From the NCBI GenBank assembly GCA_030837965.1, contig JAUTXP010000021.1, forward strand, positions 14,844-78,843: a stretch of DNA of 64,000 nt, written 5' to 3'. The position numbers and the translations under genes were made by a program. Below the pieces are notes generated by a model, which saw only the letters and a program-made list of their open reading frames with translations, was not told where the DNA came from and did no database searches. This stretch comes from Acidimicrobiaceae bacterium (lineage in GTDB: Bacteria; Actinomycetota; Acidimicrobiia; Acidimicrobiales; JAUTXP01). Positions 1,419 to 51,689 of this stretch are shown here, piece after piece. How positions within the stretch are numbered: the stretch's first letter is position 1; every line of letters begins with the position of its first letter.

Positions 1419-1731
1419 GAATTCTTCACAGCGCGATTCAGTCGTAATTTTCCCAAAGAAGGCGGCAGCCTCTTTGAGGATAGAAACAAGAAATTTGCGC
1501 GCCTTTTGCGCGACGAATCGCCCACTTCGCCCGTACTGGTGACACGTGGGGGCCGAAGTGCACCGGTGCCCGCGTGCAGCAGCTCGGGTCCCTCGTTGGC
1601 CAGGACCGTCTGAGCTCGCGCACGCGTGGGCCCGAGCGCGGTGAGCGATCGACGCTCCGCGCCGCACCGCTCGCCGGCCATCCGACCGGCCCGAGCGGGA
1701 ACCCGACCGGGCCCCAGTGCTGGGGGGTCAC

Positions 1732-2001
1732 ATGCGCAAGTCAGTCGTCCGTTGGGGAACGTCCGTCGCCGTGATGGCAGGCGGGCTCGTTGCAAGCCAG
1801 GTCATCGTCACCACGCCCGCCCTGCGGGCCATCCCGTGCCTGTCGATCCTGGTGGTGCCAGGGCCGTCCATCACCACTCCGCCGAGCTGCACGATGCCGC
1901 CCGCCACCGGGTGCACCGAGTTCACCCAAGACCGGCCCTCGCTGACCATCTACGTGCTGGTGTGCAAGGACGTGCTGCACGCCAGCCCTGTCGTGCGCTG
2001 A
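1732..2001 (+). CDS. Small secreted hypothetical protein (89 aa, 5 Cys)
   Basis: ATG at 1732 is preceded by a GGGGGG run. The N-terminus is signal-peptide-like (MRKSVVRWGTSVAVMAGGLVASQ). Third-position GC is very high by hand count. The gene is followed by a strong hairpin. No family recognised. Confidence 0.45.
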   Translation: MRKSVVRWGTSVAVMAGGLVASQVIVTTPALRAIPCLSILVVPGPSITTPPSCTMPPATGCTEFTQDRPSLTIYVLVCKDVLHASPVVR

Positions 2002-2018
2002 CCGCCGCCGCCTTGCCG

Positions 2019-2065
2019 GTCTGGAGGACATGGCCTGCGGAAACGCCAGGGCATGTCCTCCAGAC
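2019..2065. terminator. Hairpin, family A copy 1 (GTCTGGAGGACATG ... CATGTCCTCCAGAC); probable bidirectional terminator
   Basis: A 14-bp perfect inverted repeat spans 2019-2032 and 2052-2065. It has imperfect stem extension and a central GAAA. It lies between the stop of the + gene (2001) and the stop of the convergent sigma gene (2090). Confidence 0.55.
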
Positions 2066-2089
2066 GGATACGAGGGGGAGGGGGTGGGG

Positions 2090-3286
2090 TTAGACGTCGG
2101 GCGGGTGCACGGGCAGGGCCCGGTAGACGGCGCACCCGATCGGCTCCACCTGGCCCTTGTAGCACGTCAGGAGGGACGACCGCAGCCCGCCGCTGCCGAG
2201 GTCTTTCCCCGCGATCCGCTCGTCGTCGCCCTCTTTGAGGACGATCTCGTCGCCGGTGTCCTCGATGCCCGTCCTGGCCCCGCCGTCGGCCGGGCCGCCG
2301 GGCGCCACGTCGTTGGCCCGGCGTTCGACCGTGATGAAGGGACGCACCGTCGGGCGGGCTGCGGCCGGCCCAGGCACCGGCGCGCCTGCGCCGTGACCGG
2401 AGGTGCTCACCGCCGACAACACCGCTTGTCGGGCCGCGGCATTGGCCACCGCCGAGCGGCTGACACCGATAGGGGCACTGGTGGAGGCGATCGTCGTCGC
2501 ACTCGCCGGGGCCACGGCGCCGGACGAGCCGAAGCCGGCGGCCATGGCCACGGCCACTGCCGCGGCCTGCAAGCCCGGCATCATCCCGGCCAAGTAGCTC
2601 TCGGCCCGCAAGAGCGCGCCGGTGGCGTCGTTGCCCGCCCTGGCCATCGACTCGCGCCAACCCCGCACCATGTCCTGCACCTTGCGCCAGCCGCCGCCGC
2701 CCACGGCCACGGGCAGGGGCCACTGGCCCCGTTGACGGGCCACCTGCTCCACCCCTTCGTGCAGGGCGCGGCGGGCTCGCATCAAGGTCGTGCGCACGGA
2801 GCCCACCGACTTGTTCGAGAACCCGGCGATCTCCTCGTAGCTCCAGCCCATGTACTCCCGGAGGAACAGCGGGGTGCGGAACCGCTCGGGCAAGTCCTCC
2901 ATGGCCGAGTCGAGGATCGATGCCCGCAGTCGGCGGGAGACGTCCTCGTCGAGGTCGGGCCCGGCTGGCTCCCTGTCTTCAGAATGCTCCGTCAACCGCT
3001 CGCGGGAGCGCTGGATGTCCACGCAGATGTGGGCCGCGATGGTGGCCAGCCAGGGCCAGAGCCTGGCCCCCTCCCGGAATCGGGGGAGGGCCTTGTGGGC
3101 CTTGAGGATGGCGTCGTGGGCCGCGTCCTCGGCGTCGCCCGCGCCGCGCAGGCGGTGCTCGCAGAAGGCGATCAGGGCCGGGGCGTAACGCCGGTAGAGA
3201 AGGTCGAGCCCGTCGTCGTCGCCGCGCAGGCACGACTCGACAACCTGTCGCTCCTCGGCTTCCGCGGGTAATGCGTAGCCAGCCAT
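2090..3286 (-). CDS. ECF (sigma-70 family) sigma factor with a C-terminal transmembrane and extracytoplasmic extension
   Basis: Sigma region 2 (YRRYAPALIAFCEHRL..DAEDAAHDAILKA) and region 4 (LPERFRTPLFLREYMGWSYEEIA..SVGSVRTTLMRARRAL) are recognisable. They are followed by a hydrophobic helix (GLQAAAVAVAMAAGFG) and about 150 further residues. Confidence 0.85.
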   Translation of the reverse strand: MAGYALPAEAEERQVVESCLRGDDDGLDLLYRRYAPALIAFCEHRLRGAGDAEDAAHDAILKAHKALPRFREGARLWPWLATIAAHICVDIQRSRERLTEHSEDREPAGPDLDEDVSRRLRASILDSAMEDLPERFRTPLFLREYMGWSYEEIAGFSNKSVGSVRTTLMRARRALHEGVEQVARQRGQWPLPVAVGGGGWRKVQDMVRGWRESMARAGNDATGALLRAESYLAGMMPGLQAAAVAVAMAAGFGSSGAVAPASATTIASTSAPIGVSRSAVANAAARQAVLSAVSTSGHGAGAPVPGPAAARPTVRPFITVERRANDVAPGGPADGGARTGIEDTGDEIVLKEGDDERIAGKDLGSGGLRSSLLTCYKGQVEPIGCAVYRALPVHPPDV

Positions 3287-3411
3287 ACCAAGGCCCCTTG
3301 GTCTCGTGTCGTGTCCTCGTGCCGGCCTCTTCGAGCGGCCGACTCGTGTCGTTCTCCCATGAATTCACCGTCGATGACAAATTTTCCTTGTACTCGACAC
3401 GCCTGTCGTCA

Positions 3412-3437
3412 GGGAATTGAGACCCGGACGCGACGTT
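3412..3437 (+). promoter_or_regulatory. Candidate ECF-type promoter (GGGAAT-N16-CGTT) facing the kinase/regulator operon
   Basis: GGGAAT at 3412-3417 and CGTT at 3434-3437 with a 16-nt spacer resemble the generic ECF GGAAC-N16/17-CGT pattern. This is a pattern match only. Confidence 0.3.
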
Positions 3438-3517
3438 TTCGGGCCTCGCCCGTACTCAGGGAGGACGGCGCACTGGGCGGCTGTCCGAGCGAGGCGTTCA
3501 GCGACGTGAAAGGGACC

Positions 3518-4690
3518 ATGGACCAGCGCCAGGCCGTGGGCACCATCGCCTTCACCACAGGGTTGCGCGACACGGGGTTGCGGGACAGGGCGTTGCGCGA
3601 TGTGGGGTTGGGCGACGACGAGGCCGCGGGCCTGCGTGTCCTGGCCCAGGTGGTGGCCGAGACGGCCGACCTGGCCTTGGCCCTGCGGGAGATCAACCGG
3701 CGGGTGGCGGGCCCCCGGGGCCTGCGGGTGGCTGGGTGCTGCTTCACCGGGGCCCAGATGCGAGCCGCCACCGGGGCCCCCGTGCCGTCCGACGACGAGC
3801 TGACCGCCATCCAACGCTGGCGGGCCGCGGCCCGCAGGGACGAGCCGCTCGACATCACCCTCGGCCGGGGCGACCCGGCTGACGCCGACCTGCTCGTGCC
3901 CATCGTGCAGCGTCGGCGGGTCCACGGCGTGGTGCGGGTGCAGCGCACCGGCGACGAGGCCCCGAGCCCCATGGCCACCGGCCTGCTCTCGGCTATCGGC
4001 GTGGGCTGTGGCGAGGTGGCCAGGAAGGCAGGCCTGCGCAGGGAATTGGGGAAGGCCCGCCGACGACTGGCCATCGCCGAGGAGCAGGAGCGCATGGCGC
4101 GCGACGCCCAGGCGTCCGTGCACCGGCAACTGACCGTGCTCGGGGACCGGCTGGCCTGCCACCTGGCGGACACGCCCGACCGGGTGTGGCGCAGGCGCAT
4201 GCAGGAGCTGCTCGCCTTGGCGGGCGAGGCCGACCGCGAGGTGCGCCAGTCGCTGAACATGCTCCAGTCGCTGCCCGCCCAGGACGACGATCTGCCCTCG
4301 TCCCTGCGCCATCTGGCCAAGGGCGTGTCCCAGACCACCAACCTCGTCGTCAAGGTCTTCGTCGACGGCCGGCCCCGCAGGCTGTCGCGAGGCCGCACCG
4401 TCGCGCTGTTCCATGTCGCGGTGGAGGCCTTGTTGGCCGCCGCCCTCACGGCCCGGGCGGGCAATGCCGTGGTGGTGCTCGAATACCGGGCCGACGACGT
4501 GCACCTAGAGGTGCGCGACGACGGCGTGGGGCTGAGCCACCGCCAGGTCTTCGGGACGGCCGTCAGCGCCGGCCTCCGGGGCGCGCAAGAGCGCCTGTCG
4601 CGAGTGGACGGCAGGCTGCGGCTGTTCGGCATGCGCCCGACAGGGGCCGTGGTCCAGGCCACCGTCCCCCGACGCACGGCGGCCCGATGA
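3518..4690 (+). CDS. Cytoplasmic GAF-like / HisKA_3 / HATPase_c histidine-kinase homologue with degenerate catalytic motifs
   Basis: ATG at 3518 follows AAAGGGA. The dimerisation helix reads EQERMARDAQASVHRQL. The ATPase region has RDDGVGL and SAGLRGAQERL. No TM segment. The stop overlaps the next start (ATGA at 4687-4690). Confidence 0.75.
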   Translation: MDQRQAVGTIAFTTGLRDTGLRDRALRDVGLGDDEAAGLRVLAQVVAETADLALALREINRRVAGPRGLRVAGCCFTGAQMRAATGAPVPSDDELTAIQRWRAAARRDEPLDITLGRGDPADADLLVPIVQRRRVHGVVRVQRTGDEAPSPMATGLLSAIGVGCGEVARKAGLRRELGKARRRLAIAEEQERMARDAQASVHRQLTVLGDRLACHLADTPDRVWRRRMQELLALAGEADREVRQSLNMLQSLPAQDDDLPSSLRHLAKGVSQTTNLVVKVFVDGRPRRLSRGRTVALFHVAVEALLAAALTARAGNAVVVLEYRADDVHLEVRDDGVGLSHRQVFGTAVSAGLRGAQERLSRVDGRLRLFGMRPTGAVVQATVPRRTAAR

Positions 4691-7059: not shown

Positions 7060-7133
7060 TGGAGCGGGTGACGGGAATCGAACCCGCATGACCAGCTTGG
7101 AAGGCTGGGACTCTGCCATTGAGCTACACCCGC
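7060..7133 (-). tRNA. tRNA-Gly (anticodon UCC), CCA encoded
   Basis: The reverse complement is GCGGGTGTAGCTCAATGGCAGAGTCCCAGCCTTCCAAGCTGGTCATGCGGGTTCGATTCCCGTCACCCGCTCCA. It folds as a cloverleaf with anticodon loop CTTCCAA. Confidence 0.9.
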
Positions 7134-7157
7134 GTGGCCGGCGTCTTCGTCCGGCGG

Positions 7158-7229
7158 TCGGGGAGGGGGGATTCGAACCCCCGACCGCCAGCACCCAAAG
7201 CTGGTGCGCTACCACTGCGCCACTCCCCG
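7158..7229 (-). tRNA. tRNA-Pro (anticodon UGG)
   Basis: The reverse complement is CGGGGAGTGGCGCAGTGGTAGCGCACCAGCTTTGGGTGCTGGCGGTCGGGGGTTCGAATCCCCCCTCCCCGA. It folds as a cloverleaf with anticodon loop TTTGGGT. The CCA is not fully encoded (CCG follows). Confidence 0.9.
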
Positions 7230-7317
7230 GTCTTCTCCCAAAAATGGTAGTGGCGGGCCGGGGCCGCGAATACGTCCGCCGGGGTTGGGACGGGCCGCCA
7301 GTAGACTCGTCCCTCGC

Positions 7318-8637
7318 ATGAAAGCCACCGTCGAGCCCCTCGAGGGCAACAAGGTCAAGCTCTCGGTCGAGGTCGACGACAGCGAGTTCGAAAAGGCGCT
7401 GGACGCCGCCTTCCGCAAGATGGCCCACGAGGTGCGCATCCCCGGCTTCCGGCCGGGCAAGGCGCCCCGCAAGCTGCTGGAAGCCAGGCTGGGCAAGGAC
7501 ACGGCTCGGCAGGAGGCCCTGCGCGAGGCGCTGCCCGACTACTACGCGCAGGCCGTCAAGGACGCCGACCTCGACCCCATCGCCCCGCCCGAGATCGACA
7601 TCACGTCCGAGGGCGCGGAAGGCCCCATCGCCTTCGACGCCGTCGTCGAGGTCCGGCCCCTGGTCGCCATCCCCGGATACGGCGGGCTCCAGGTCACGGT
7701 CCCCAGCCCGCACGTCACCGACGAGGACGTCGACCGCCAGATCGACCGCATGCGCGAGCGCGACGCCGACCTGCGTCCGGTGGAGCGGGCCGCTCGCAGC
7801 GGCGATGTCGTCACCATCGACCTGACCGCGGGGGACAGCGACCTGGCCGACACCTCCTACGAAGTGGGGTCGGAGTCGCTGGTGCCCGGGCTGGACGAGC
7901 AACTGGCCGGGGCCAAGGTCGGCGACATCCTCCAGTTCGACGCCACCGCCCAGGGGGCGGAAGAGCCCACGAGCATCCGCGTGCTGGTCAAGGACGTGAA
8001 GGAAAAGGTGCTCCCCGAGCCCACCGACGAGTGGGCGGCCGAGGCGTCGGAGTTCGAGACGGTGGCCGAGCTGCGCGAGGACACCCGCAAGCGGCTGGCC
8101 ACGGTCAAGCGCCTGCAAGCCAGTCTGGCCATGCGCGACGAGTCGTTGAAGGCGCTCGTCCAGTTGGTCGAGGACGACGTGCCCAAGCCGCTGGTCGACC
8201 AGGAGGTCGAGCGCAGGGCCCGCGACCTGTCGCACCGCCTGGAGCACCAGGGCGCCTCGATCGTGCAGTACCTCCATGCGACGGGCACGACCGAGGAGCA
8301 GTTCGTGGGCCAGCTCACGGCCGACGCGGTGGAGGCGGTGAAGGCCGACCTGGCCTTGCGGGCCCTGGCCGAGGCCGAGCAGATCGAGCCCACCGAGGAA
8401 GACGTGGACGAAGAGGTGGCCCGGCTGGCCCAGCGCTTCGAGGTCAAGCCGGACAAGCTGCGCAAGGACCTCGAACGCCAAGAGGCCATCCCTACGGTAC
8501 GCTCGGACGTCAAGAAGGCGAAGGCCCTGGAGTGGCTCGTCCAACACGTCGAGGTCGTCGACGAGGAGGGCCACCCCATCGACAGAGCCGATCTGTCCCC
8601 CGAGGCAGAGCCGCTGGAACAGGAGCCCGCAGAGTGA
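7318..8637 (+). CDS. tig: Trigger factor
   Basis: [55 protein letters not shown] is the canonical trigger-factor N-terminus. TAGACT lies 10 nt upstream of the ATG. Confidence 0.92.
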
Positions 8638-9289: not shown

Positions 9290-10564
9290 GTGGCCAAGTT
9301 CGGGGACGGGGGCGACCTCGTCAAGTGCAGCTTCTGCGGCAAGTCGCAGAAGCAGGTCAAAAAGCTCATCGCAGGGCCTGGGGTCTACATCTGCGACGAA
9401 TGCATCGACCTGTGCAACGACATCATCGAAGAGGAGCTGGCCGAGTCGTCGGAGATGCGCTTCGACGAGCTGCCCAAGCCCCAGGAGATCTTCTCGTTCC
9501 TGAACGACTACGTCATCGGCCAGGACCGGGCCAAGAAGATCCTGTCGGTCGCCGTCTACAACCACTACAAGCGGGTGCAGTCGGGCGCGTACCACGACTC
9601 CGACGTGGAGCTGGCCAAGTCGAACATCTTGCTGTTGGGGCCGACCGGGTGCGGCAAGACGCTGCTGGCCCAGACGCTGGCCCGCATGCTCAACGTCCCA
9701 TTCGCCATTGCCGACGCCACTGCGTTGACCGAGGCCGGCTACGTGGGCGAGGACGTCGAGAACATCCTGCTGAAGCTGATCCAGGCGGCCGACTACGACG
9801 TCAAGAAGGCCGAGACGGGGATCATCTACATCGACGAGATCGACAAGATCGCCCGCAAGTCGGAGAACCCGTCGATCACGCGTGACGTGTCGGGCGAGGG
9901 CGTGCAGCAGGCCCTGTTGAAGATCCTGGAGGGGACTACGGCGTCGGTGCCGCCCCAGGGCGGGCGCAAGCATCCGCACCAGGAGTTCATCCAGATCGAC
10001 ACGACCAACATCTTGTTCATCTGCGGCGGGGCCTTCGCCGGGCTGGACAAGATCATCGAGTCGCGCATCGGGCGCAAGGGCATCGGCTTCCGGGCCGACA
10101 TCGCCAAGTCGTCCGAGAAGGACGAGGGCGCCTTGATGGCCCAGGTGCTGCCCGAGGACCTGCTCAAGTTCGGCCTCATCCCCGAGTTCGTCGGCCGCCT
10201 GCCCGTCATCGGCGCCGTGTCCGGCCTGGACCGGGGCGCGCTGGTGGAGATCCTGGTCGAGCCCAAGAACGCCTTGGTGAAGCAGTACCGCAAGGTGTTC
10301 GAGCTGGACGGCGTGGAGCTCGAGTTCTCCACCGACGCCCTCGAGGCCGTGGCCGAGCAGGCCCTGTTGCGGGGCACCGGCGCCCGCGGCCTGCGGGCCA
10401 TCTTGGAAGAGGTGCTGTTGGAGGTCATGTACGACCTGCCCAGCCGCACCGACATCGGCGGGTGCGTGATCACCCGCGAGGTGGTGCTCGAGCGGGTCAA
10501 CCCGACCCTGGTCCCGCGCGCCGAGACCGACAAGACCGACCGCCCCCGCCGGGCCGCCTCCTAA
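9290..10564 (+). CDS. clpX: ATP-dependent Clp protease ATP-binding subunit ClpX
   Basis: Zn-finger [30 protein letters not shown], Walker A GPTGCGKT, and IYIDEIDKI. Confidence 0.95.
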
Positions 10565-10643: not shown

Positions 10644-10692
10644 AGCACGTCTTGTCGCGCTCATTGCCATATGCGGCACTGAGCGCGGACGG
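10644..10692. repeat. Hairpin, family C copy (contains AGCACGTCTTGTCGCGCT)
   Basis: The 18-nt AGCACGTCTTGTCGCGCT at 10644-10661 is identical to the reverse complement of 30003-30020. It pairs imperfectly with GAGCGCGGACG downstream. Confidence 0.4.
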
Positions 10693-10756
10693 CATGGGCA
10701 GCAAATCGCCTGTGATTCGGCGGCCAGCCCGTCGCCCAAGCCGCTCATGCACACTC

Positions 10757-10786
10757 GGCGCCGGCGCCGGCGCCGGCGCCGGCGCC
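10757..10786. repeat. (GGCGCC)x5 hexanucleotide microsatellite
   Basis: Five perfect tandem copies read directly. The unit is itself palindromic. Confidence 0.9.
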
Positions 10787-10971
10787 CTGCCCCCGGACGC
10801 CCTGCCCGAGGCCAGTTGGGTCTTGCCGATGGGCCTCGACGCCACCGGCAATCCGATGCTGGCGAAGACGCTGGCCGGGGTACCTGTTTGCGAATGGACA
10901 ACGCGCCCGGCTGGTCCTTCTCCTGTCCTTGAAGGACAGTCCAAGGTCCACCGTGCACCTTCGTCCCGCGG

Positions 10972-11349
10972 TCAGGGATGGATCAGTTCGACGTGGCGTC
11001 CGGACGCAGCCGCAAGCCGTTCGAGATCCTCGCGGTCGACCGTCACGATCTCGTCGCCGTCGGCTGCGAGCAACACGACGCCGGCATCGATGACATCAGC
11101 CAGCCCCGCGGCACCGAGGAGCAACCCAGCCGCCCGGCCAAGTGGCTCATCGAGCGCGCGGACGTCGATTCCACCGAGAGCCTGAGACAACCGGGCCTGA
11201 CGCGGGCCGCCGCGCCACACCTGTCCAAGGACCCCGGCGTGGGTCAGCGGGAGGTCTCCATCGACTTGGGCGGCCTTCAAGCGGACCCACATCTGGCGTT
11301 CATTGCGCTCCAACGCGATCAGCGCGCCGCTGTCGAGGACGAGGCTCAC
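10972..11349 (-). CDS. vapC: PIN-domain toxin (VapC-like)
   Basis: The 125-aa protein starts LVLDSGALIALER. Acidic residues are spaced as in PIN domains (D6, E13, ..DAGVVLLAADGDEIVTVDRED). 4-nt overlap with the upstream antitoxin gene. Confidence 0.75.
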   Translation of the reverse strand: MSLVLDSGALIALERNERQMWVRLKAAQVDGDLPLTHAGVLGQVWRGGPRQARLSQALGGIDVRALDEPLGRAAGLLLGAAGLADVIDAGVVLLAADGDEIVTVDREDLERLAAASGRHVELIHP

Positions 11350-11648
11350 GCCGACTTCGTCTTGCCCGCGGCCTGTCGGCGCCGACCGCGAACGACCGTC
11401 GCGTCCTGCCGATCAGCCCGCCTTTGGGCGGTAATCTCCTCGGCGCTGATCTCGCCGAACTCGTTCTCGTAATCGGCCACCGCTGCGGCCAGGAGCGCGA
11501 GCTTCCGATCACGCCGGATCTTGTCCTCCAGCGCGGCGCTGACCCAACCGCTGACGGACTCTGCTTGCCCGGACTCGACCGCCCGCTGACCAGCCTCGAC
11601 CAGGTCCGGGTCGACCGTCACGGTGAGACGATGCTTCTTCGAAGTCAT
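11346..11648 (-). CDS. vapB: Type II antitoxin (ribbon-helix-helix-like, VapB-like)
   Basis: The 100-aa protein has N-terminal KKHRLTVTVDPDLVEAGQRAV (RHH-like). Its position and overlap with the PIN gene fit an antitoxin. Confidence 0.65.
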   Translation of the reverse strand: MTSKKHRLTVTVDPDLVEAGQRAVESGQAESVSGWVSAALEDKIRRDRKLALLAAAVADYENEFGEISAEEITAQRRADRQDATVVRGRRRQAAGKTKSA

Positions 11649-11676
11649 ACTCTGATGCTAACAGAGGTATAACGGT

Positions 11677-12698
11677 ATGCATATCCCTCCGGGGAGCCCC
11701 GTTTGGGGACGCGATGCCACACTTGGAAGGTCGGGACTCTCGCCATCGACCGTGCGTAACTGGCGGGCGGCCGGGAGGCTGGTGCCGGTGCAGCCTCGGG
11801 TCGACCGGGTCGCCGGGGCGCCGGTGACCTGGGAGCAACACGTGCTGGCCGCGGTCCTCAGCGCAGGCCGGGCCGCAGCCGCGTCGCACCGGGCCGCCGG
11901 GCGCATCTGGCGCATCCACCCGGGCGACGCGCCGGTGGAGATCGTCGTGCCGCGGGGCCGTAGCGCCCGGCTCCACCACGGCGTCGTCGTCCACCACACG
12001 ACCGACGACATCCCGACCGTCCGTCGCCAGGCCATACCGACGACGACGCCGATGCGCACCACCGTCGATCTCGGCGCGGTCGAGCGACACCGGGCGGTGG
12101 AGGACGCATTGGACCGGGCCTTGGCCGACAAGCTGTGCACGTTGCCCGCCGTCGAGTGGGAGCTGGCCCGCGTGGCTCGGCCCGGGCGCAGGGGAGCGGG
12201 GGTGCTGCACCGCGTGCTCGACGCCCGGGCCCTGGGCGACCAGCGGCCCGACGGGCTGTTGGAGCCCGGTTCGCCCGGTTGGTCCGGCGGTACGGCCTGC
12301 CCGAGCCCGTGTTCCAGTATTGGATCGGCCCCTACCGGGTCGACTTCGGCATCGGCCCTGCCACGTGGACCACCACGTCGTTCACGACCCAGGTCATCGG
12401 CGTGGAGGACGGCCAGCCCGTCAACAAGTCCGGGAGCTGTTCGATGAACGGGACCACGTCGATGGCGGTGTGGGGCGGCGGCGGGATCTACTCGGGCACG
12501 TGGGTGTGCACCGGGGACTACGCGCGCACCGGCACCTTCGAGTGGTACTTCACCGGTCCCGGCGGCGGGCCATGGCTGTTCCACGACTTCGCCCCTTCGA
12601 CCCTGGTGGACCACTGCTACGGCGTGCCCGTGTACTCCTCGCCGCCCCCCATCCACCAGATCACGATCTATTGCGCGGGGGTCGCAGCCTCGCCCTGA
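11677..12698 (+). pseudogene. Frameshifted and truncated DUF559/AbiEi-N-like gene, fused to an unrelated C-terminal fragment
   Basis: Frame 1 reads GLSPSTVRNWRAAGRLVPVQPRV ... VLDARALGDQRPDGLLE. Homology continues in another frame (ARFARLVRRYGLPEPVFQYWIGPYRVDF), which implies a 1-nt deletion near 12264. After YRVDFG the sequence becomes unrelated (ATWTTTSF...YCAGVAASP). Confidence 0.65.
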
Positions 12699-12723
12699 GG
12701 CGGCTCAGGTTCCAAGGCGGGTC

Positions 12724-13329
12724 GTGCGGGGCAATACTGAGGGCATGGGAAAGGCTTTGAAGTTCGCGTTCTTGGGTGGGTTGGCGGGCGCCGGTTATGC
12801 CGGGTACCAGGCCCTCCAGCAGGACGAGACCATCGAGGAGGTGGCCCGCAAGGCGGCGACGGTGGGCGGTGAGGCGGCCGCCGCCGGGCTGGCTGTGGGC
12901 TTCATGCTCGATCGACGCACCCGGCGCAAGGTCAGGGCCGCGGCCGCGCTGGCCGCCAGCAGACGCAGCAAGCTGGCGGGTGCGGCCTTGGCCGCCAAGC
13001 CGGTCATGGAGAAGGCGCTCGAGTACGCGGGGCAGGCCGCCGACGCGGCCCGGCCCCGGGTCGAGCATGCGGCCGAGGTCACCAAGGAGCGGGCAACCCA
13101 CGCGGCGGCGGTGGCCAAGCCCGTGGTGAGCAAGGCGGCCAAGCAGGCGGCCGAGGCGACCAGGGACTACGCCGTGCACGCCGCCGAGGCAGCCCGACCC
13201 ACCATCGAGAAGGCGGCCGACGCGGCCCGGCCTCGGGTCATCGATCTGCGGGACAAGGTGGTCGAGAAGGCCTCGGCCATGACGGCCGACGTGGACGGCC
13301 CCCGCAAGCTCGTCCTCTCGATCGCCTAG
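12724..13329 (+). CDS. Ala-rich membrane-associated hypothetical protein with Pro-punctuated amphipathic repeats
   Basis: Hydrophobic N-terminal segments (FAFLGGLAGAGYAGY; AAAAGLAVGFML) are followed by repeated A(K/R)P(V/R/T)(V/I) units about 11/22 residues apart. The alternative start ATG 12745 is equally plausible. Confidence 0.5.
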   Translation: MRGNTEGMGKALKFAFLGGLAGAGYAGYQALQQDETIEEVARKAATVGGEAAAAGLAVGFMLDRRTRRKVRAAAALAASRRSKLAGAALAAKPVMEKALEYAGQAADAARPRVEHAAEVTKERATHAAAVAKPVVSKAAKQAAEATRDYAVHAAEAARPTIEKAADAARPRVIDLRDKVVEKASAMTADVDGPRKLVLSIA

Positions 13330-13472
13330 CCCAGGCGGCGCAGCCCACCGACCCGACGCCACCGGGCGCCGCCCCCAAACCCGCGCTGCGCCTCTGGCGG
13401 TCCTGACCCACCGGCTGACCCACCGGTTCGGCTCGGCAGGCGCTGGCGGCCGCCGCCTAACCTCGACCCGCC

Positions 13473-14960
13473 GTGCGCCTGCTCTCCACACCCGTTCGCC
13501 TGTCCGGCCCCTTGGTGCTGAGCCAACTGGTGCTGCTCGTCACCGCCGATCAGCGCAGGCTTGAGGACCCGTCCATCGACTGGTCGCCCTCGGTCCTCGC
13601 GGGCGACCTGGCCGGGCAGTATGCGGCCGAGCGGGAGTTGGCCAGGGAGGGCCACGACCGGGCCACCGTGGGCAGGGACGAGTTCATCGAGCGGGTTCAC
13701 GCCTTCGAGGCCGGGCGGCGCACGGCCGCGGCCCAGACGTTCGGGCGACTCGGCCTCGGCCTCGACCTCGACGCCGCCGCGGTGGACAGGGACGAGGTCA
13801 TCACCGCGGCCCGTACCGCGTTCGTGCAGCTCTACGAGGCGGGCCTGCTCCATCGGTCGGAACTGGTCGTGGACACGTGCCCACGCTGCGCCACCGTGGT
13901 CGACCCGGTGGACGCGCTGCCCGCCGAACTCGACGGCGAGCGGCTGTTGGTCGACGCGGGCGACGTCAAGGTGGCCACTCTCGCGCCCGAACTGTTGCTC
14001 GGCGTGGTCGCCGTCGTCGTCCCGCCTGAGCATCCGGCCGCGGGCGGCGAGGCCAAGGTGCCCGTCGCCCATCGCAGTGTGCCCGTCCTGGCGGACGCCG
14101 CCGCGGTCGAGCCCGCCTTCTTGGTGCCCGCCCATGACGCCACGGCGCTGGAGACGGCCAGGGCCAACGGCCTGTTCCCCATCGAGGTGCTGGACGACCT
14201 GGGCGAGGTCTCCCAACCCGGCCCCCTTCACCGTCTGGCCCGGTTCGCGGCCCGAGCCGCGGCCCGCGACCTGCTGCTCGCGGAGGGCGTGCTGATCGAT
14301 GCCGCGCCCGCGCCCGAGGCCGCGGCCCGGTGCCGCCGCTGCAGCACGGTCGTGGTGCCCCGCCTCGGCCTGCACTGGTTCCTCGACATGACCGACCTGG
14401 AAGTGGCCGCGGCCGACCAGTTGCGAGAAGGCGTGCTCGATGTGTCCCCCGCGGGCGCCAGGGACGAGCTGGTAAACCGGGCCGGTGCGGGCGGCACGTG
14501 GTGCCTCAGTCATCAGGTATGGGCGGGCTCGCCCGTCCCCGTGTCGACATGCCGTGACTGCGGCCAACTGTGCGTGGCCGTCGACATGCCCACGTCGTGC
14601 GGCAAGTGCATGGGCGAGTTGGCGGCCGACGACTCCGTGCTCGACGCCCGGTTCGTGGGCGCGGTGTGGCCGCTGGCCGCAGCCGGTTGGCCCGACGCCC
14701 GGCCCGACCCCGACGACGTGTCCGACACCGAGTTGCTCACGACCCCTGCCGGCCTCATCCGGTGGGCCCTGCCCATGGCCGCCCTCGGCCTGCGCCTGGC
14801 CGGTGCCGCCCCGTTCGCCCGAGTGACCGCAGTCGACGTGCGCACCGACCCCGACGACCCCGAGCCCCAGGTCGTGGCCGACCTCGACGCGCTGATCGAG
14901 GCCGAAGGCGCAGGCCCGGTGCGGGCCGCCCTGCTGGCGGGCTCGCTCGAACTGGCCTGA
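13473..14960 (+). CDS. ValRS-like protein: catalytic-core and CP1 homologue lacking HIGH, KMSKS and the anticodon-binding domain
   Basis: It is colinear with class Ia ValRS. Examples: LAREGHDRATVGRDEFIERV vs L.KEGKTRHDLGRE.FLERV; VVDTCPRCATVV vs VNWCPRC.T.L; LVPAHD vs TPAHD; GWPD vs GWPE. An in-frame TAA at 13458-13460 blocks upstream extension. The KMSKS position reads DDPEPQ. The stop overlaps the folC ATG. Confidence 0.75.
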   Translation: MRLLSTPVRLSGPLVLSQLVLLVTADQRRLEDPSIDWSPSVLAGDLAGQYAAERELAREGHDRATVGRDEFIERVHAFEAGRRTAAAQTFGRLGLGLDLDAAAVDRDEVITAARTAFVQLYEAGLLHRSELVVDTCPRCATVVDPVDALPAELDGERLLVDAGDVKVATLAPELLLGVVAVVVPPEHPAAGGEAKVPVAHRSVPVLADAAAVEPAFLVPAHDATALETARANGLFPIEVLDDLGEVSQPGPLHRLARFAARAAARDLLLAEGVLIDAAPAPEAAARCRRCSTVVVPRLGLHWFLDMTDLEVAAADQLREGVLDVSPAGARDELVNRAGAGGTWCLSHQVWAGSPVPVSTCRDCGQLCVAVDMPTSCGKCMGELAADDSVLDARFVGAVWPLAAAGWPDARPDPDDVSDTELLTTPAGLIRWALPMAALGLRLAGAAPFARVTAVDVRTDPDDPEPQVVADLDALIEAEGAGPVRAALLAGSLELA

Positions 14961-16258
14961 TGAACTGGACGTTCGGCGAGGCGGCCGCGTACCTCGACTC
15001 GCATGTGAACCTGGAGGCGGTGTCGGCCCGTCGGGTGCAGGCACCGACCCTCGACCGCATTCGCAGGCTCACCGAGCTCATGGCCGATCCGCAGCACCAG
15101 TACCCGGTCGTGCACGTGACAGGAACGAACGGCAAGACGTCGACCGCGGCCATTGCCACCTCGCTCCTCCAGGCCAAGGGCCTGTCGGTCGGCACCTACA
15201 CCAGCCCCCATCTCGAACGGGTGAACGAGCGCCTGTCGTGGAACGGCGAGCCCATCAGCGACGGCGCGTTGGCCGAGGTGCTCGAACAGCTCGCCCACAT
15301 CGAGCCTTTGTTGGACGAACGGCCGACCGTGTTCGAATTGTTGACCGCGGCCGCCTTCCGCTGGTTCGCGGACGTCGCCGTCGATGTGGCCGTGATCGAG
15401 GTGGGCCTGGGCGGCACGTGGGACGCGACCAACGTGGCCGACGGGCGCGTCGCCGTCGTCACCAACGTGGGCATCGACCACGTCGAGTACCTCGGCCCGA
15501 CGCGGGAGGGGATCGCCAAGGAGAAGTCGGGAATCGTCAAGCCCGGCAGCACGCTGGTTCTCGGGGAGACGGACCCGGCCTTGGCCCCGGTGTTCGACGC
15601 CGCGGGCGCCAACGAGGTGTGGCGGCGGGATCAGGACTTCGCGTGCGAGGCCAACCGCCTCGCGCTCGGCGGCAGGCTGCTCGACCTGCGCACGCCGGGT
15701 GCCCGCTACGACGACGTGTACCTGCCCCTTCACGGCGCCCATCAGGGCGACAACGCCGCATGCGCGCTGGCCGCGGCCGAGGCCTTCTTCGCCGCGCCCA
15801 TCGAGGCGGACCTGGTGGCCGAGGGCATGGCTGCGGCCCGGTCGCCCGGGCGGATGGAGGTGGTGGGCCGCCATCCGCTGTGCATCCTCGACGGGGCCCA
15901 CAACCCGGCCGGGGCACGGGCCGCAGCGGCCACGTTGGCCGAGGCCTTCCCCGAGTCGGCGTCGCGCATCTTGGTCCTCGGCCTGCTGCACGGCCGCGAC
16001 CCGGACGACATGCTCGCCGCGCTGGGCACCTCCGGGGTGCGCATGATCGTGGCCTGCCCGCCGCCATCGCCGCGCGCCCTCCCCACGTCCGAGGTGGCTG
16101 CCGCCGCGGCCCGCGCGGGCGTGCCCGTCGTGGAGGTGGACTCCGTGGCCGGCGCGGTCGACAAGGCCGTGGACATGGCCGAGCCCGAGGAGCTGGTGCT
16201 GGTCACCGGCTCGCTGTACGTCGTCGGGGCGGCCAGGTCGGCGTTGCGCAGCCGCTAA
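14960..16258 (+). CDS. folC: Bifunctional folylpolyglutamate synthase / dihydrofolate synthase
   Basis: YPVVHVTGTNGKTSTAAI, Mur-ligase-family central and C-terminal domains, and the ATG overlapping the upstream stop. Confidence 0.9.
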   Translation: MNWTFGEAAAYLDSHVNLEAVSARRVQAPTLDRIRRLTELMADPQHQYPVVHVTGTNGKTSTAAIATSLLQAKGLSVGTYTSPHLERVNERLSWNGEPISDGALAEVLEQLAHIEPLLDERPTVFELLTAAAFRWFADVAVDVAVIEVGLGGTWDATNVADGRVAVVTNVGIDHVEYLGPTREGIAKEKSGIVKPGSTLVLGETDPALAPVFDAAGANEVWRRDQDFACEANRLALGGRLLDLRTPGARYDDVYLPLHGAHQGDNAACALAAAEAFFAAPIEADLVAEGMAAARSPGRMEVVGRHPLCILDGAHNPAGARAAAATLAEAFPESASRILVLGLLHGRDPDDMLAALGTSGVRMIVACPPPSPRALPTSEVAAAAARAGVPVVEVDSVAGAVDKAVDMAEPEELVLVTGSLYVVGAARSALRSR

Positions 16259-16270
16259 CGTCCCCGCCTC

Positions 16271-16678
16271 ATGGACCGGACCCTGGTGATCTGCAAGCCC
16301 GACGCGGTCGAGCGGGGGCTGGTCGGCGAGATCGTGTCCCGGTTGGAGCGAAAGGGCCTGCGGCTGGCCGCGGCCGAGCTGCGGACCATCGACGCCGACA
16401 CCGCGGGCCGTCATTACGAGGAGCATCAAGGCAAGCCCTTCTTCGCCAGCCTGGTCGAGTTCATCACCCGCTCGCCGTCCATGCTGATGGTGGTGGAGGG
16501 CCCGCAGGACACGTGGAAGGTCGTGCGCACGATGATGGGCGTGACCAACCCGATCGAGGCCGCGCCCGGCACCATCCGCGGCGACCTGGGCCTGCTGATG
16601 ACCGAGAACCTGGTCCACGGCTCGGACGGTCCCGAGTCGGCCGAACGCGAGGTCGGCATCTTCTTCCCGAACCTCTGA
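16271..16678 (+). CDS. ndk: Nucleoside diphosphate kinase
   Basis: MDRTLVICKPDAVERGLVGEIVSRLERKGL ... NLVHGSD, full-length 135 aa. Confidence 0.95.
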   Translation: MDRTLVICKPDAVERGLVGEIVSRLERKGLRLAAAELRTIDADTAGRHYEEHQGKPFFASLVEFITRSPSMLMVVEGPQDTWKVVRTMMGVTNPIEAAPGTIRGDLGLLMTENLVHGSDGPESAEREVGIFFPNL

Positions 16679-16788
16679 CGGGCGCGATAGCGCCTGGTGG
16701 GGACGAAGTGGGGGATGCCGGGTGGCGGCGGCGGCCAATCCCTCATAGCCTGGTCGGCTGACCTCCAACCCCGAGGAGGCCCCGCCGC

Positions 16789-17826
16789 GTGTCCGACAAC
16801 TTCCTTTCCTCCGTGCTTGGCCGGGATATGGCCGTCGATCTAGGGACGGCCAACACCCTTGTGTACGTGCGCGGGCGCGGGATCGTGCTCAACGAGCCGT
16901 CCGTGGTGGCCGTCAACGTGAAGGACGGCCGCCCGTTGGCGGTGGGCGTCGAGGCCAAGCGCATGATCGGGCGCACGCCCAGCCACATCCAGGCCATCCG
17001 GCCGCTGAAGGACGGCGTCATCGCGGATTTCGAGATCTGCGAGAAGATGCTCCGCTACTTCATCCACAAGGTGCACCAGCGGCGCTTCGCCAAGCCCCGC
17101 ATGGTCATCTGCGTGCCGTCGGGCATCACCGGCGTGGAGAAGCGGGCCGTGCAGGAGGCGGCCGAGTACGCGGGGGCGCGCAAGGGCGTCTACATCATCG
17201 AAGAGCCCATGGCCGCGGCCATCGGCGCAGGGCTGCCCGTGCACGAGCCCACCGGCAACATGGTGGTCGACATCGGCGGCGGCACCACCGAGGTGGCCGT
17301 CATCTCCCTGGGCGGCATGGTCGTGAGCCAGTCGGTCAGGGTCGGCGGCGACGAACTGGATGACGCCATCATCCAGTTCATCAAGAAGGAGTACTCGCTG
17401 GCCTTGGGCGAGCGCACGGCCGAGGAGATCAAGATCGCGTTGGGCTCGGCCTGTCCGCTCGAGGAGGAGCTGCACGCGGAGATCCGCGGCCGCGACCTCA
17501 TCACCGGCCTGCCCAAGACCATCGTCACCACCACCGACGAGATCCGCGAGGCCATCGAGGAGCCCTTGTCGGCCATCGTCGACGCGGTGAAGGTCACGTT
17601 GGACAAGACCCCGCCGGAGTTGGCCGCCGACATCATGGAGCAGGGCATCGTCCTGACCGGCGGCGGCGCCCTCCTGCACGGCCTGGACGCCCGGCTGTCG
17701 GCCGAGACGGGCATGCCCATCGTCATCGCCAAGAACCCGCTCCACTGTGTGGCCATCGGCGGCGGCCTGTACCTCGAGGAGTTCGCAGCGCTGAAGGACA
17801 TGCTCCGCGGCTCGACCGACGACTAA
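16789..17826 (+). CDS. mreB: Rod-shape-determining protein MreB
   Basis: [29 protein letters not shown] ... [25 protein letters not shown] lies upstream of the GTG. Confidence 0.95.
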
Positions 17827-51605: not shown

Positions 51606-51689
51606 GCCGTCAAGGTTGGCACACGGCGGGCTGTTTCCTCGCAGCCGTTGTCGGGGCTCGGTCGGTTGGGCTGACGGTTCCGAGCGGGC

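What the first reader, a model, noticed from the sequence alone, without database searches (positions are those of the whole stretch)
13473..14960. Intact but motif-less ValRS homologue in the valS slot, overlapping folC
In the conserved actinobacterial order clpX ... valS-folC-ndk-mreB, the valS position here holds only a 495-aa ORF.

- It aligns colinearly with the ValRS Rossmann core and CP1 editing domain.
- An in-frame TAA at 13458-13460 removes the N-terminus, including the HIGH region.
- The TDHAGI segment reads VLAGDL.
- The editing-site TTRPET reads TLAPEL, although PAHD is kept.
- The KMSKS position reads DDPEPQ.
- The protein ends right after the ALRF-equivalent segment, so the anticodon-binding and C-terminal coiled-coil domains are absent.
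- The frame stays open for 1.5 kb with strong GC3 bias, and its TGA overlaps the folC ATG.

This could be a retained pseudo-aminoacyl-tRNA synthetase with a new, possibly non-catalytic role. It could also be a very young pseudogene kept open because folC translation depends on it.
Basis: partly seen in the sequence, partly recalled or inferred. Interest (0 to 1): 0.7.

Follow-up and report, generated by a model that had tools for sequence, protein, structure and literature searches.

The report
Conserved dead ValRS relic beside folC
The gene sitting where the valine-tRNA synthetase gene normally lies encodes a shortened copy of that enzyme with both active sites gone, yet it has stayed intact and under selection across a whole group of uncultured soil actinobacteria, so it is a "zombie enzyme" with an unknown new job and not a decaying pseudogene.

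Summary
The 495-aa ORF at 13473-14960(+) is real and is a ValRS homologue (valS model E 2e-55; predicted fold TM 0.83 to T. thermophilus ValRS). It keeps the Rossmann core, the CP1 domain and both zinc knuckles. It lacks the anticodon-binding and coiled-coil domains.

The HIGH region is not cut off by the upstream TAA. It lies inside the ORF (residues 15-18, VLSQ), and every family member starts at the same point.

The gene is not a young pseudogene. It belongs to a family of at least 250 sequence clusters, about 47 of them distinct at 50% identity. All are from uncultured Acidimicrobiales/Actinomycetota, and all sit in clpX-[gene]-folC-ndk-mreB. About 45 orthologues have no internal stop. dN/dS is 0.17-0.41, similar to folC. 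All 8 zinc cysteines are invariant.

Aminoacylation and editing residues are replaced, many by new conserved residues (N44→R, D81→L, W456→R, I491→G). That looks like a rebuilt pocket, not random decay.

Best reading: a non-catalytic pseudo-ValRS, the positional orthologue of valS, co-translated with folC. Its function is unknown. A true valS elsewhere in these genomes is inferred; I could not show it.

The parts
13473..14960 (+). ValRS-like pseudo-synthetase gene (495 aa): Rossmann core, CP1 domain and two zinc knuckles; no anticodon-binding domain or coiled coil
   Evidence: an identical protein, P0001, is annotated in an Acidimicrobiaceae MAG
13458..13460 (+). In-frame TAA 12 nt upstream of the GTG start. 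It bounds the ORF but does not remove the HIGH region.
13515..13526 (+). HIGH-equivalent codons (residues 15-18, V-L-S-Q). In the family: H/R/S/V, L, A/S/G, H/Q.
13596..13619 (+). LAGDLAGQ (residues 42-49), replacing GTDHAGIATQ. The valine alpha-amino ligand Asp81 (Tth numbering) is Leu in 82 of 86 members.
13878..13889 (+). CPRC (C136, C139), first half of zinc knuckle 1 (Tth C176/C179). Invariant in 86 of 86.
13977..13994 (+). TLAPEL (residues 169-174), replacing the editing motif TTRPET. R216→A and T219→L.
14127..14138 (+). PAHD (residues 219-222) is retained. Around it the GTG loop is deleted, K270→F, T272→V and D279→A.
14331..14342 (+). CRRC (C287, C290), second half of zinc knuckle 1 (Tth C344/C347). 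Invariant.
14550..14609 (+). Zinc knuckle 2: C360-x-x-C363 and C376-x-x-C379 (Tth C417/C420/C438/C441). Invariant.
14640..14654 (+). LDARF (residues 390-394), replacing LDTWF. The valine-pocket Trp456 is Arg in 86 of 86 members.
14853..14870 (+). DDPEPQ (residues 461-466) at the KMSKS position. The family consensus is DDPDP.
14958..14962 (+). TGATG: the stop of the ValRS-like gene overlaps the folC ATG by one base
   Evidence: the tight junction is family-wide
14960..16258 (+). folC (Mur_ligase_M and Mur_ligase_C), the translationally coupled downstream gene
9290..10564 (+). clpX, the upstream anchor of the conserved block
16271..17826 (+). ndk and mreB, the downstream anchors of the conserved block

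Best explanation
The ORF encodes a catalytically dead derivative of valyl-tRNA synthetase, a pseudo-ValRS. It is the positional orthologue of the ancestral valS gene in the clpX...valS-folC-ndk-mreB block.

In one clade of uncultured Acidimicrobiales this gene lost the anticodon-binding and coiled-coil domains, both class-I signature motifs, the valine-binding residues and the editing residues. It kept the Rossmann/CP1 scaffold and both zinc knuckles. It is still translated as the gene directly coupled to folC.

Shown here: the homology and fold, the loss of catalytic residues, the family-wide conservation, the intact ORFs, the purifying selection and the fixed gene order.

Inferred: (i) it cannot charge or proofread tRNA-Val, so a functional ValRS must be encoded elsewhere in these genomes; (ii) it acts non-catalytically. 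The likeliest way is by binding a ligand or partner through the rebuilt former active-site pocket and the zinc-knuckle region, which are the most conserved parts. The pocket now carries invariant Arg9, Leu42, His301, Arg393 and Gly427. (iii) The window's 495-aa form is a further-shortened version of the roughly 578-aa long form, which keeps a 4-helix remnant of the anticodon-binding domain.
For: - Homology: valS model E 1.9e-55 but 188 bits against a 704-bit cutoff; family profile against 1GAX E 1.6e-83.
- Fold: AlphaFold2 pLDDT 94.7, pTM 0.91; Foldseek top hit 1GAX_A, TM 0.83, E 3e-37.
- Family size: 250 hits down to 47% identity, all named ones from Acidimicrobiales/Actinomycetota MAGs. About 47 representatives at the 50% level are followed by a score gap, then canonical ValRS at 30-35% identity. 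The family is monophyletic on a long branch.
- Gene order: (tig)-clpX-gene-folC-ndk-mreB in all of about 50 loci. Every complete orthologous ORF is intact and stops within about -10 to +12 nt of the folC start in most loci.
- Selection: dN/dS is 0.17-0.41 in the least saturated pairs, against 0.12-0.29 for folC and 0.02-0.15 for clpX and mreB.
- Catalytic loss: of 141 columns conserved at 85% or more in canonical ValRS, 67 are kept and every catalytic one is lost.
- Residue map to 1GAX: N44→R (83/86), D81→L (82/86), Q358→H (85/86), W456→R (86/86), I491→G (82/86). KMSKS becomes DP-x-L/V with a gap. R216→A, T219→L, the GTG loop is deleted, K270→L/F, T272→V. All 8 zinc cysteines are 86/86.
- The most conserved blocks surround the former synthetic site and the zinc knuckles. 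The editing body and the KMSKS loop are the least conserved.
- Long-form members have no Anticodon_1 or Val_tRNA-synt_C hit.
- A canonical valS-folC pair with an 11-nt overlap lies downstream of clpX in Carboxydothermus. This supports the view that this is the ancestral valS position.
Against: - No expression data of any kind were available.
- A full-length valS in the same genomes was not demonstrated. All three homology searches and both collection scans failed to reach an Acidimicrobiales ValRS.
- dN is 1-3 times that of folC and far above clpX and mreB, so constraint is only moderate.
- About half the family, though not the window protein, keeps His at both HIGH positions (HLAH). Residual nucleotide binding in those members cannot be excluded.
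- In 70% GC genomes long ORFs stay open easily, as the 572-aa antisense shadow ORF shows. ORF intactness alone is therefore weak evidence. The argument rests on amino-acid conservation and the third-position bias of substitutions.
- The molecular function is not identified.
Confidence: 0.72

Rival explanations
1. It is a young or ordinary decaying pseudogene of valS. Its reading frame is kept open only because ribosomes must read through it to initiate at the overlapping folC start.
For: The stop/start overlap TGATG, tight junctions to folC in nearly all loci, the loss of all catalytic motifs, and the ease with which high-GC genomes keep ORFs open.
Against: - The family spans about 47 clusters at 50% identity, yet 38 columns are invariant in 86 sequences, including all 8 cysteines.
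- dN/dS is 0.17-0.41, with substitutions concentrated at third codon positions.
- The family alignment gives an AlphaFold2 model with pLDDT 94.7.
- Lost catalytic residues are replaced by new conserved residues, not by random ones.
- A spacer needed only for translation would not conserve its amino-acid sequence.
Confidence: 0.03
2. It is still an enzyme with a new chemistry. The rebuilt Rossmann-fold pocket (two Arg and two His that are invariant or nearly so) would bind and transform a new, probably anionic, substrate. This would resemble aaRS paralogues that became ligases or transferases.
For: New residues are conserved in the old active site: R9, H301, H347 and R393, with D391, Q49, W343 and W431 retained. 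The highest conservation surrounds this site. About half the family keeps H-x-A-H at the HIGH position.
Against: The window protein has VLSQ at HIGH. The KMSKS loop is replaced and is among the least conserved parts. The ribose/ATP ligand D490 is variable (T/S/A). No co-localised biosynthetic genes are present; the neighbourhood is pure housekeeping.
Confidence: 0.12
3. It is a free-standing trans-editing factor. It would use the retained CP1 domain to hydrolyse Thr-tRNA-Val or other mischarged tRNAs.
For: The CP1 fold is retained with PAHD (H275 and D276 conserved).
Against: - Editing-site residues are gone: R216→A, T219→L, D223→V/A, the GTG loop is deleted, K270→L/F and T272→V.
- The universally required Asp279 is Ala in the window protein and is Asp in only 37 of 86 members.
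- The editing-domain body is the least conserved large region.
- The protein is strongly acidic (net charge -32, pI 4.6) and lacks the tRNA-binding C-terminal domains.
Confidence: 0.04
4. It is the organism's working ValRS, or the N-terminal piece of a split ValRS whose C-terminal half is encoded elsewhere.
For: It occupies the valS slot. No other valS was seen in the 64-kb window or in about 450 kb of orthologous flanks.
Against: HIGH, KMSKS, Asp81, Trp456, Asp490 and Ile491 are all replaced. The score is 188 bits against a 704-bit cutoff. A split enzyme would still need these motifs in the N-terminal piece. The flanks examined are only a small fraction of each genome.
Confidence: 0.02

Closest known systems
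Canonical bacterial valine-tRNA ligase (NCBIfam PRK05729 / TIGR00422; structure 1GAX, T. thermophilus)
   Same: The Rossmann catalytic-core fold, the CP1 insertion, both Cys4 zinc knuckles, and many structural Gly, Pro and Trp residues are shared (67 of 141 conserved columns). The genomic position upstream of folC is the same.
   Different: It has no HIGH, no KMSKS, no valine or adenylate ligands and no editing residues. It also has no anticodon-binding helix bundle, no C-terminal coiled coil and no N-terminal ~37 residues. Identity is 30-35%, and the score is about a quarter of the family cutoff.
HisZ, the HisRS paralogue that is the regulatory subunit of short-form ATP phosphoribosyltransferase (from general knowledge, not tested here)
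   Same: Both are aaRS catalytic-domain homologues without aminoacylation activity that are kept under selection for a non-catalytic role. HisZ is the best-known precedent for the kind of thing proposed here.
   Different: HisZ is class II and lies next to or near hisG. Its partner and allosteric ligand are known. Here the parent enzyme is class Ia ValRS, the partner (if any) is unknown, and the gene is the positional orthologue of valS, not an extra copy.
Free-standing aaRS editing-domain homologues (AlaX, YbaK/ProX, ThrRS-ed; from general knowledge)
   Same: Each is a truncated aaRS-derived protein that retains an editing-domain fold.
   Different: Those proteins keep their hydrolytic residues and consist of the editing domain alone. 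This protein keeps the whole Rossmann core as well as CP1, and it has lost the CP1 hydrolytic residues.
Other sub-threshold ValRS paralogues in high-GC bacteria, e.g. 'class I tRNA ligase family protein' of Solwaraspora sp. (P0225, 852 aa) and P0243 (851 aa)
   Same: These are ValRS homologues that score below the valS equivalog cutoff, some with partly degenerate motifs.
   Different: They are near full length, with the anticodon-binding region present. They score 619-632 bits against 188 here and fall among canonical ValRS, not inside this family.

Membership tests
Valine-tRNA ligase (functional ValRS; NCBIfam PRK05729 / TIGR00422) | Whole-protein score at or above the curated equivalog cutoff | tested here: not met
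   188.5 bits against 704 (PRK05729) and 180.3 against 612 (TIGR00422)
Valine-tRNA ligase (functional ValRS; NCBIfam PRK05729 / TIGR00422) | Class I HIGH signature (H-x-G-H) | tested here: not met
   V15-L16-S17-Q18 in the window protein; the positions are variable across the family
Valine-tRNA ligase (functional ValRS; NCBIfam PRK05729 / TIGR00422) | KMSKS loop | tested here: not met
   Replaced by DDPEPQ in the window protein and DDPDP in the family, with a one-residue gap
Valine-tRNA ligase (functional ValRS; NCBIfam PRK05729 / TIGR00422) | Valine and adenylate pocket residues (Tth P41, N44, D81, W456, D490, I491) | tested here: not met
   They read T, R, L, R, A and G in the window protein; only P42 and W495 are kept
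Valine-tRNA ligase (functional ValRS; NCBIfam PRK05729 / TIGR00422) | CP1 post-transfer editing residues (R216, T219, K270, T272, D279) | tested here: not met
   They read A, L, F, V and A, and the GTG loop is deleted; H275 and D276 are kept
Valine-tRNA ligase (functional ValRS; NCBIfam PRK05729 / TIGR00422) | Anticodon-binding domain (PF08264) and C-terminal coiled coil (PF10458) | tested here: not met
   The protein ends at the model position equivalent to about 504 of 860. No Pfam hit appears even in long-form members. Canonical ValRSs show both domains.
Valine-tRNA ligase (functional ValRS; NCBIfam PRK05729 / TIGR00422) | Rossmann core plus CP1 fold with zinc knuckles | tested here: met
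   TM 0.83 to 1GAX_A; 8 of 8 zinc cysteines are invariant
Class I aaRS catalytic-domain superfamily (Pfam PF00133 tRNA-synt_1) | Score above the Pfam gathering threshold | tested here: met
   80.2 bits against 22.7
aaRS-derived pseudoenzyme (non-catalytic paralogue of the HisZ kind) | Homologous fold with the catalytic residues lost | tested here: met
aaRS-derived pseudoenzyme (non-catalytic paralogue of the HisZ kind) | Maintained by purifying selection across lineages | tested here: met
   Intact ORF in about 45 loci; dN/dS 0.17-0.41; 38 invariant columns in 86 sequences
aaRS-derived pseudoenzyme (non-catalytic paralogue of the HisZ kind) | An active enzyme for the original reaction is encoded elsewhere in the same genome | not testable with these tools
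   Only 10 kb or less of flank per locus can be read. Searches with the nearest canonical ValRSs landed in Sericytochromatia and Limnocylindrales, not Acidimicrobiales.
aaRS-derived pseudoenzyme (non-catalytic paralogue of the HisZ kind) | An identified partner or ligand through which it acts | not tested
   There are only circumstantial links to folC: universal coupling and one in-frame fusion in L021
Free-standing trans-editing factor | Intact hydrolytic site in the editing domain | tested here: not met

The most novel reading that the evidence does not exclude
The dead ValRS has become a dedicated partner of FolC, a HisZ-like regulatory or assembly subunit. It may sense a metabolite through the rebuilt, Arg/His-lined former valyl-adenylate pocket.

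This would explain three things. The gene is always translationally coupled to folC. One lineage (L021) has the two fused in frame. The Rossmann core and zinc knuckles, not the tRNA-handling parts, are the most conserved.

It would be the first class-I synthetase relic recruited to folate metabolism. It would also be a documented case of the original valS orthologue being displaced and repurposed in place.
Probability: 0.12. Interest if true: 0.8.

Novelty: new variant of a known kind. Interest (0 to 1): 0.6.

Why it matters
A survey of more than 2500 prokaryotic genomes lists ValRS among the most evolutionarily stable aaRS families, those with few paralogues (PMC5388404). A full-text search found no paper describing a truncated or dead ValRS paralogue.

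Here the gene at the ancestral valS position has lost every catalytic and tRNA-anticodon-binding feature. It has nevertheless been kept for a long evolutionary time, with its old active site rebuilt from new invariant residues.

If confirmed, this gives a clean natural example of orthologue displacement followed by repurposing of an essential translation enzyme. It also provides a new pseudoenzyme scaffold (Rossmann core, CP1 and two zinc knuckles) whose ligand or partner can be looked for directly.

There is a practical consequence for annotation. Sources label these proteins "valyl-tRNA synthetase", which can make a genome bin that lacks the real enzyme appear to have valS.

Tried and rejected
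Finding the true ValRS of the same genomes:
- tblastn of canonical ValRS, full length and C-terminal half, against the window and all 56 fetched loci (about 450 kb) found only family members and archaeal Halosimplex ValRS.
- Large ORFs of the window scanned with NCBIfam contained no valS.
P0163 proved to be from Sericytochromatia and P0177 from Candidatus Limnocylindrales. Cluster look-ups gave Thermaerobacter, Solwaraspora, Thermoplasmata, Myxococcales, Terriglobales and one unspecific 'Actinomycetes bacterium'. The question stays open.
- Looking up the window protein returned only a 3.5-kb Logan contig, so the 90-kb source contig could not be extended.

Other dead ends:
- A neighbour-joining tree to find a canonical sister group was unresolved: the family sits on a long branch with the midpoint root on its stem.
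- The shorter hits among the canonical ValRS matches in the representative search looked like possible intermediates. They turned out to be fragments of canonical ValRS with TTRPET and KMSKS intact.
- Rfam found no riboswitch, T-box or other RNA near the gene. The promoter and terminator scan of 12600-15200 found nothing.
- The AFDB Foldseek library was unavailable.
- I considered an AlphaFold test of a ValRS-like/FolC complex on concatenated paired sequences.
- The antisense 572-aa ORF (13326-15044, minus strand) and the +2-frame ORF were rejected as genes: no Pfam hit and the wrong codon-position GC pattern.
Full report
**The observation.** ORF 13473..14960(+) exists as described. It has 495 codons and a GTG start, with an in-frame TAA 12 nt upstream. 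GC by codon position is 0.80/0.51/0.91, the signature of a real gene in this 70% GC window. The fully overlapping antisense 572-aa ORF has the wrong signature (0.89/0.56/0.78) and no Pfam hit.

The protein matches valine-tRNA ligase models strongly but far below their cutoffs. PRK05729 gives E 1.9e-55 and 188 bits against 704, covering model positions 64-504 of 860. Pfam tRNA-synt_1 gives 80 bits.

The neighbours are tig, clpX, three or four unannotatable ORFs, this gene, folC, ndk, mreB, mreC and PBP2. The stop overlaps the folC ATG by one base (TGATG).

**One correction.** The upstream TAA does not remove the HIGH region. A profile of the family aligns to T. thermophilus ValRS (1GAX) from residue 38, the beta-strand that leads into HIGH. 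The window protein's PVRLSGPLVLSQL corresponds to PPNVTGSLHMGHA, so HMGH has become V15-L16-S17-Q18. All 86 aligned relatives start at the same point. This is the native N-terminus of a family, about 37 residues shorter than canonical ValRS.

**It is a family, not an accident.**
- A word-indexed search found 250 relatives. An identical protein is annotated in an Acidimicrobiaceae MAG on a 90-kb contig. The others run down to 47% identity and are 480-630 aa long. Every named one comes from an Acidimicrobiales or Actinomycetota MAG.
- The exhaustive HMMER search of 1.84 billion 50%-identity representatives shows about 47 family representatives. After a score gap come canonical 860-945-aa ValRSs at only 30-35% identity.
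- A neighbour-joining tree puts the family on one long branch. Its internal diversity (mean distance 0.64) exceeds that among canonical ValRSs of different phyla (0.54).
- Pattern scans recovered the gene in 23 GTDB species-representative genomes, all uncultured, and in 25 JGI metagenome contigs.

**Position and integrity.** In all of about 50 loci the order is (tig)-clpX-gene-folC-ndk-mreB. Every orthologous ORF that is complete on its contig is free of internal stops. In most loci it ends within about -10 to +12 nt of the folC start.

Canonical valS occupies the same place elsewhere. In Carboxydothermus hydrogenoformans an 878-aa valS downstream of clpX overlaps folC by 11 nt. From my own knowledge, M. 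tuberculosis (Rv2448c-Rv2447c-Rv2445c) and Streptomyces coelicolor (SCO2617...SCO2615-SCO2614-SCO2612-SCO2611) have the same order. The gene is therefore best read as the positional orthologue of valS, not as an inserted extra copy.

**Selection.** Nei-Gojobori estimates for the least saturated pairs give dN/dS of 0.17-0.41, with differences concentrated at third codon positions. In the same genome pairs folC gives 0.12-0.29, mreC 0.11-0.33, and clpX and mreB 0.02-0.15. The protein is constrained about as much as folC and much less than a core housekeeping enzyme. GC3 bias probably deflates dS, so these ratios are likely upper bounds.

**Structure.** AlphaFold2 on the 86-sequence family alignment gives pLDDT 94.7 and pTM 0.91. 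Foldseek's best PDB match is ValRS 1GAX_A (TM 0.83 normalised to the query, E 3e-37), followed by IleRSs.

The common long form (about 578 aa) is also confidently modelled (pLDDT 92.3). It adds four C-terminal helices that extend the structural alignment to 1GAX from 530 to 661 columns. These helices have no Anticodon_1 signal. They look like a stump of the anticodon-binding bundle.

The window's subclade and several other lineages (for example L015, L034 and L045) lack even this stump. In the window no spare DNA is left between the stop and folC, so the tail was deleted cleanly.

**What is lost and what is kept.** Of 141 alignment columns conserved at 85% or more in 71 canonical ValRSs and lying within the ORF, the family majority keeps 67. 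None of the kept ones is catalytic. The mapping to 1GAX numbering shows:

| Site | Canonical residue (Tth) | In the family |
|---|---|---|
| Synthetic | P41 | S/T |
| Synthetic | P43 | V |
| Synthetic | N44 | R (83/86) |
| Synthetic | H50-M-G-H53 | H/R/S/V, L, A/S, H/Q |
| Synthetic | D81 | L (82/86) |
| Synthetic | H82 | A |
| Synthetic | Q358 | H (85/86) |
| Synthetic | R404 | H (76/86) |
| Synthetic | W408 | A |
| Synthetic | W456 | R (86/86) |
| Synthetic | S458, S459 | V, G |
| Synthetic | D490 | T/S/A |
| Synthetic | I491 | G (82/86) |
| Synthetic | R498 | P |
| Synthetic | KMSKS | D-P-x-L/V plus a gap |
| Editing | R216 | A |
| Editing | T219 | L |
| Editing | D223 | V/A |
| Editing | GTG loop | deleted |
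| Editing | K270 | L/F |
| Editing | T272 | V |
| Editing | D279 | D in 37/86, A in the window |
| Editing | H275, D276 | kept |

All eight zinc-ligand cysteines (C176, C179, C344, C347, C417, C420, C438, C441) are invariant in 86 of 86. That is stricter than in canonical ValRS.

The lost catalytic residues are mostly replaced by new residues that are themselves conserved. This argues for a selected new state of the pocket and against neutral decay.

Conservation is highest in the blocks WCLSHQVWAGxPVPV, AARTAFVxLYEAGLL, CxxVxPRLGxHWFL, VLDARFVGAVWPLA and TCPRC, which lie around the old synthetic site and the zinc knuckles. It is lowest in the editing-domain body and the KMSKS-equivalent loop.

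The proteins are strongly acidic (net charge -23 to -42, pI 4.4-5.0). They have fewer than half the tryptophans of the equivalent canonical core.

**Interpretation.** The protein cannot activate valine, bind ATP in the class-I manner, proofread, or read the anticodon. It is not a ValRS, not half of a split ValRS, and not a trans-editing factor. It is also not a pseudogene. The best-supported description is a pseudoenzyme: the displaced original valS, retained for a non-catalytic role carried by its zinc-stabilised Rossmann/CP1 scaffold and rebuilt pocket.

What it binds is unknown. Three facts hint at a link to FolC: the universal tight coupling to folC, a single in-frame ValRS-like–FolC fusion in one MAG contig (L021), and the purely housekeeping neighbourhood. 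The adjacency is ancestral, however, so it is weak evidence, and the fusion is a single unverified case. I rate a FolC-partner role at about 0.12.

**The main gap.** Only 10 kb or less around each locus is readable. The nearest canonical ValRSs retrievable belong to other phyla. No canonical ValRS C-terminal domain occurs in any fetched flank. The existence of a true ValRS is therefore an inference from the essentiality of the reaction and the complete loss of the catalytic apparatus here.

**Novelty.** A survey of more than 2500 genomes lists ValRS among the aaRS families with the fewest paralogues (PMC5388404). A full-text search found no description of a ValRS-like truncated paralogue. Databases label these proteins 'valyl-tRNA synthetase' or 'class I tRNA ligase family protein'. 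Dead aaRS paralogues are a known kind, HisZ being the classic case. This one has a different parent enzyme, a different architecture and an unusual origin as the positional orthologue, so I rate it a new variant of a known kind.

Noticed in passing
window 10652-13329: Between clpX and the ValRS-like gene lie three or four high-GC3 ORFs with no Pfam or NCBIfam match: 10978-11472 (164 aa), 11677-12447 (256 aa), an ~84-aa ORF and 12724-13329 (201 aa). Three of them (256, 84 and 201 aa) are called on an independent Logan contig. A distant relative (L001) has a single 136-aa ORF there. This is a variable insert inside an otherwise rigid gene block.
   Followed up: partly
L021 (JBQTJJ010000048.1) 1255-3720: The ValRS-like ORF is fused in frame to folC in an 821-codon ORF, with the junction ...PFERVTAL|MGWTYAEALGWLDGH... 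The whole C-terminal part of the ValRS-like protein after the PFxRV strand is missing. This is either a real deletion and fusion or an assembly artefact. It is the only such case among about 50 loci.
   Followed up: partly
window 13326-15044 (minus strand): A 572-aa antisense ORF covers the whole gene. It has no Pfam hit, and its GC by codon position is 0.89/0.56/0.78. It is a typical high-GC shadow ORF, not a gene.
   Followed up: yes
window 7063-7229 (minus strand): Two tRNA genes (7063-7133 and 7158-7229) lie at the 5' edge of the stop-to-stop frame that contains tig (7123-8637). They overlap the start of that frame, but the Trigger_N match begins only at its residue 66. They are the only Rfam matches in the 64-kb window.
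   Followed up: no
L010 and L012 (both from MAG JAFATL01, isolate CP_BM_ER_R9_11): One MAG carries two different copies of the ValRS-like locus, 53% and 57% identical to the window protein. L012 has folC, ndk and mreB beside its copy. L010 has tig and clpX but no folC hit in the stretch fetched. Either two strains were binned together or the block is duplicated.
   Followed up: no
proteins P0225 (Solwaraspora sp., 852 aa), P0243 (851 aa), P0219 (796 aa): Other near-full-length ValRS paralogues in high-GC bacteria score below the valS equivalog cutoff (619-658 bits against 704). At least P0243 has visibly degenerate motifs (GIDQAAIG, KMLAS). So there are ValRS paralogue lineages outside this family.
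   Followed up: partly
protein P0196 (835 aa, on a 1.33-Mb contig): This canonical ValRS has a garbled Arg/Pro/Gly-rich C-terminus and a missing N-terminus. It looks like frameshift errors in a long-read assembly. Truncated 'ValRS' calls in such MAGs need checking before they are interpreted.
   Followed up: no
window 50259-53000 (minus strand): In a 913-codon stop-to-stop frame, only the C-terminal half (residues 471-912) matches class II DAHP synthase. The upstream half is probably just open high-GC sequence and not an N-terminal extension.
   Followed up: no
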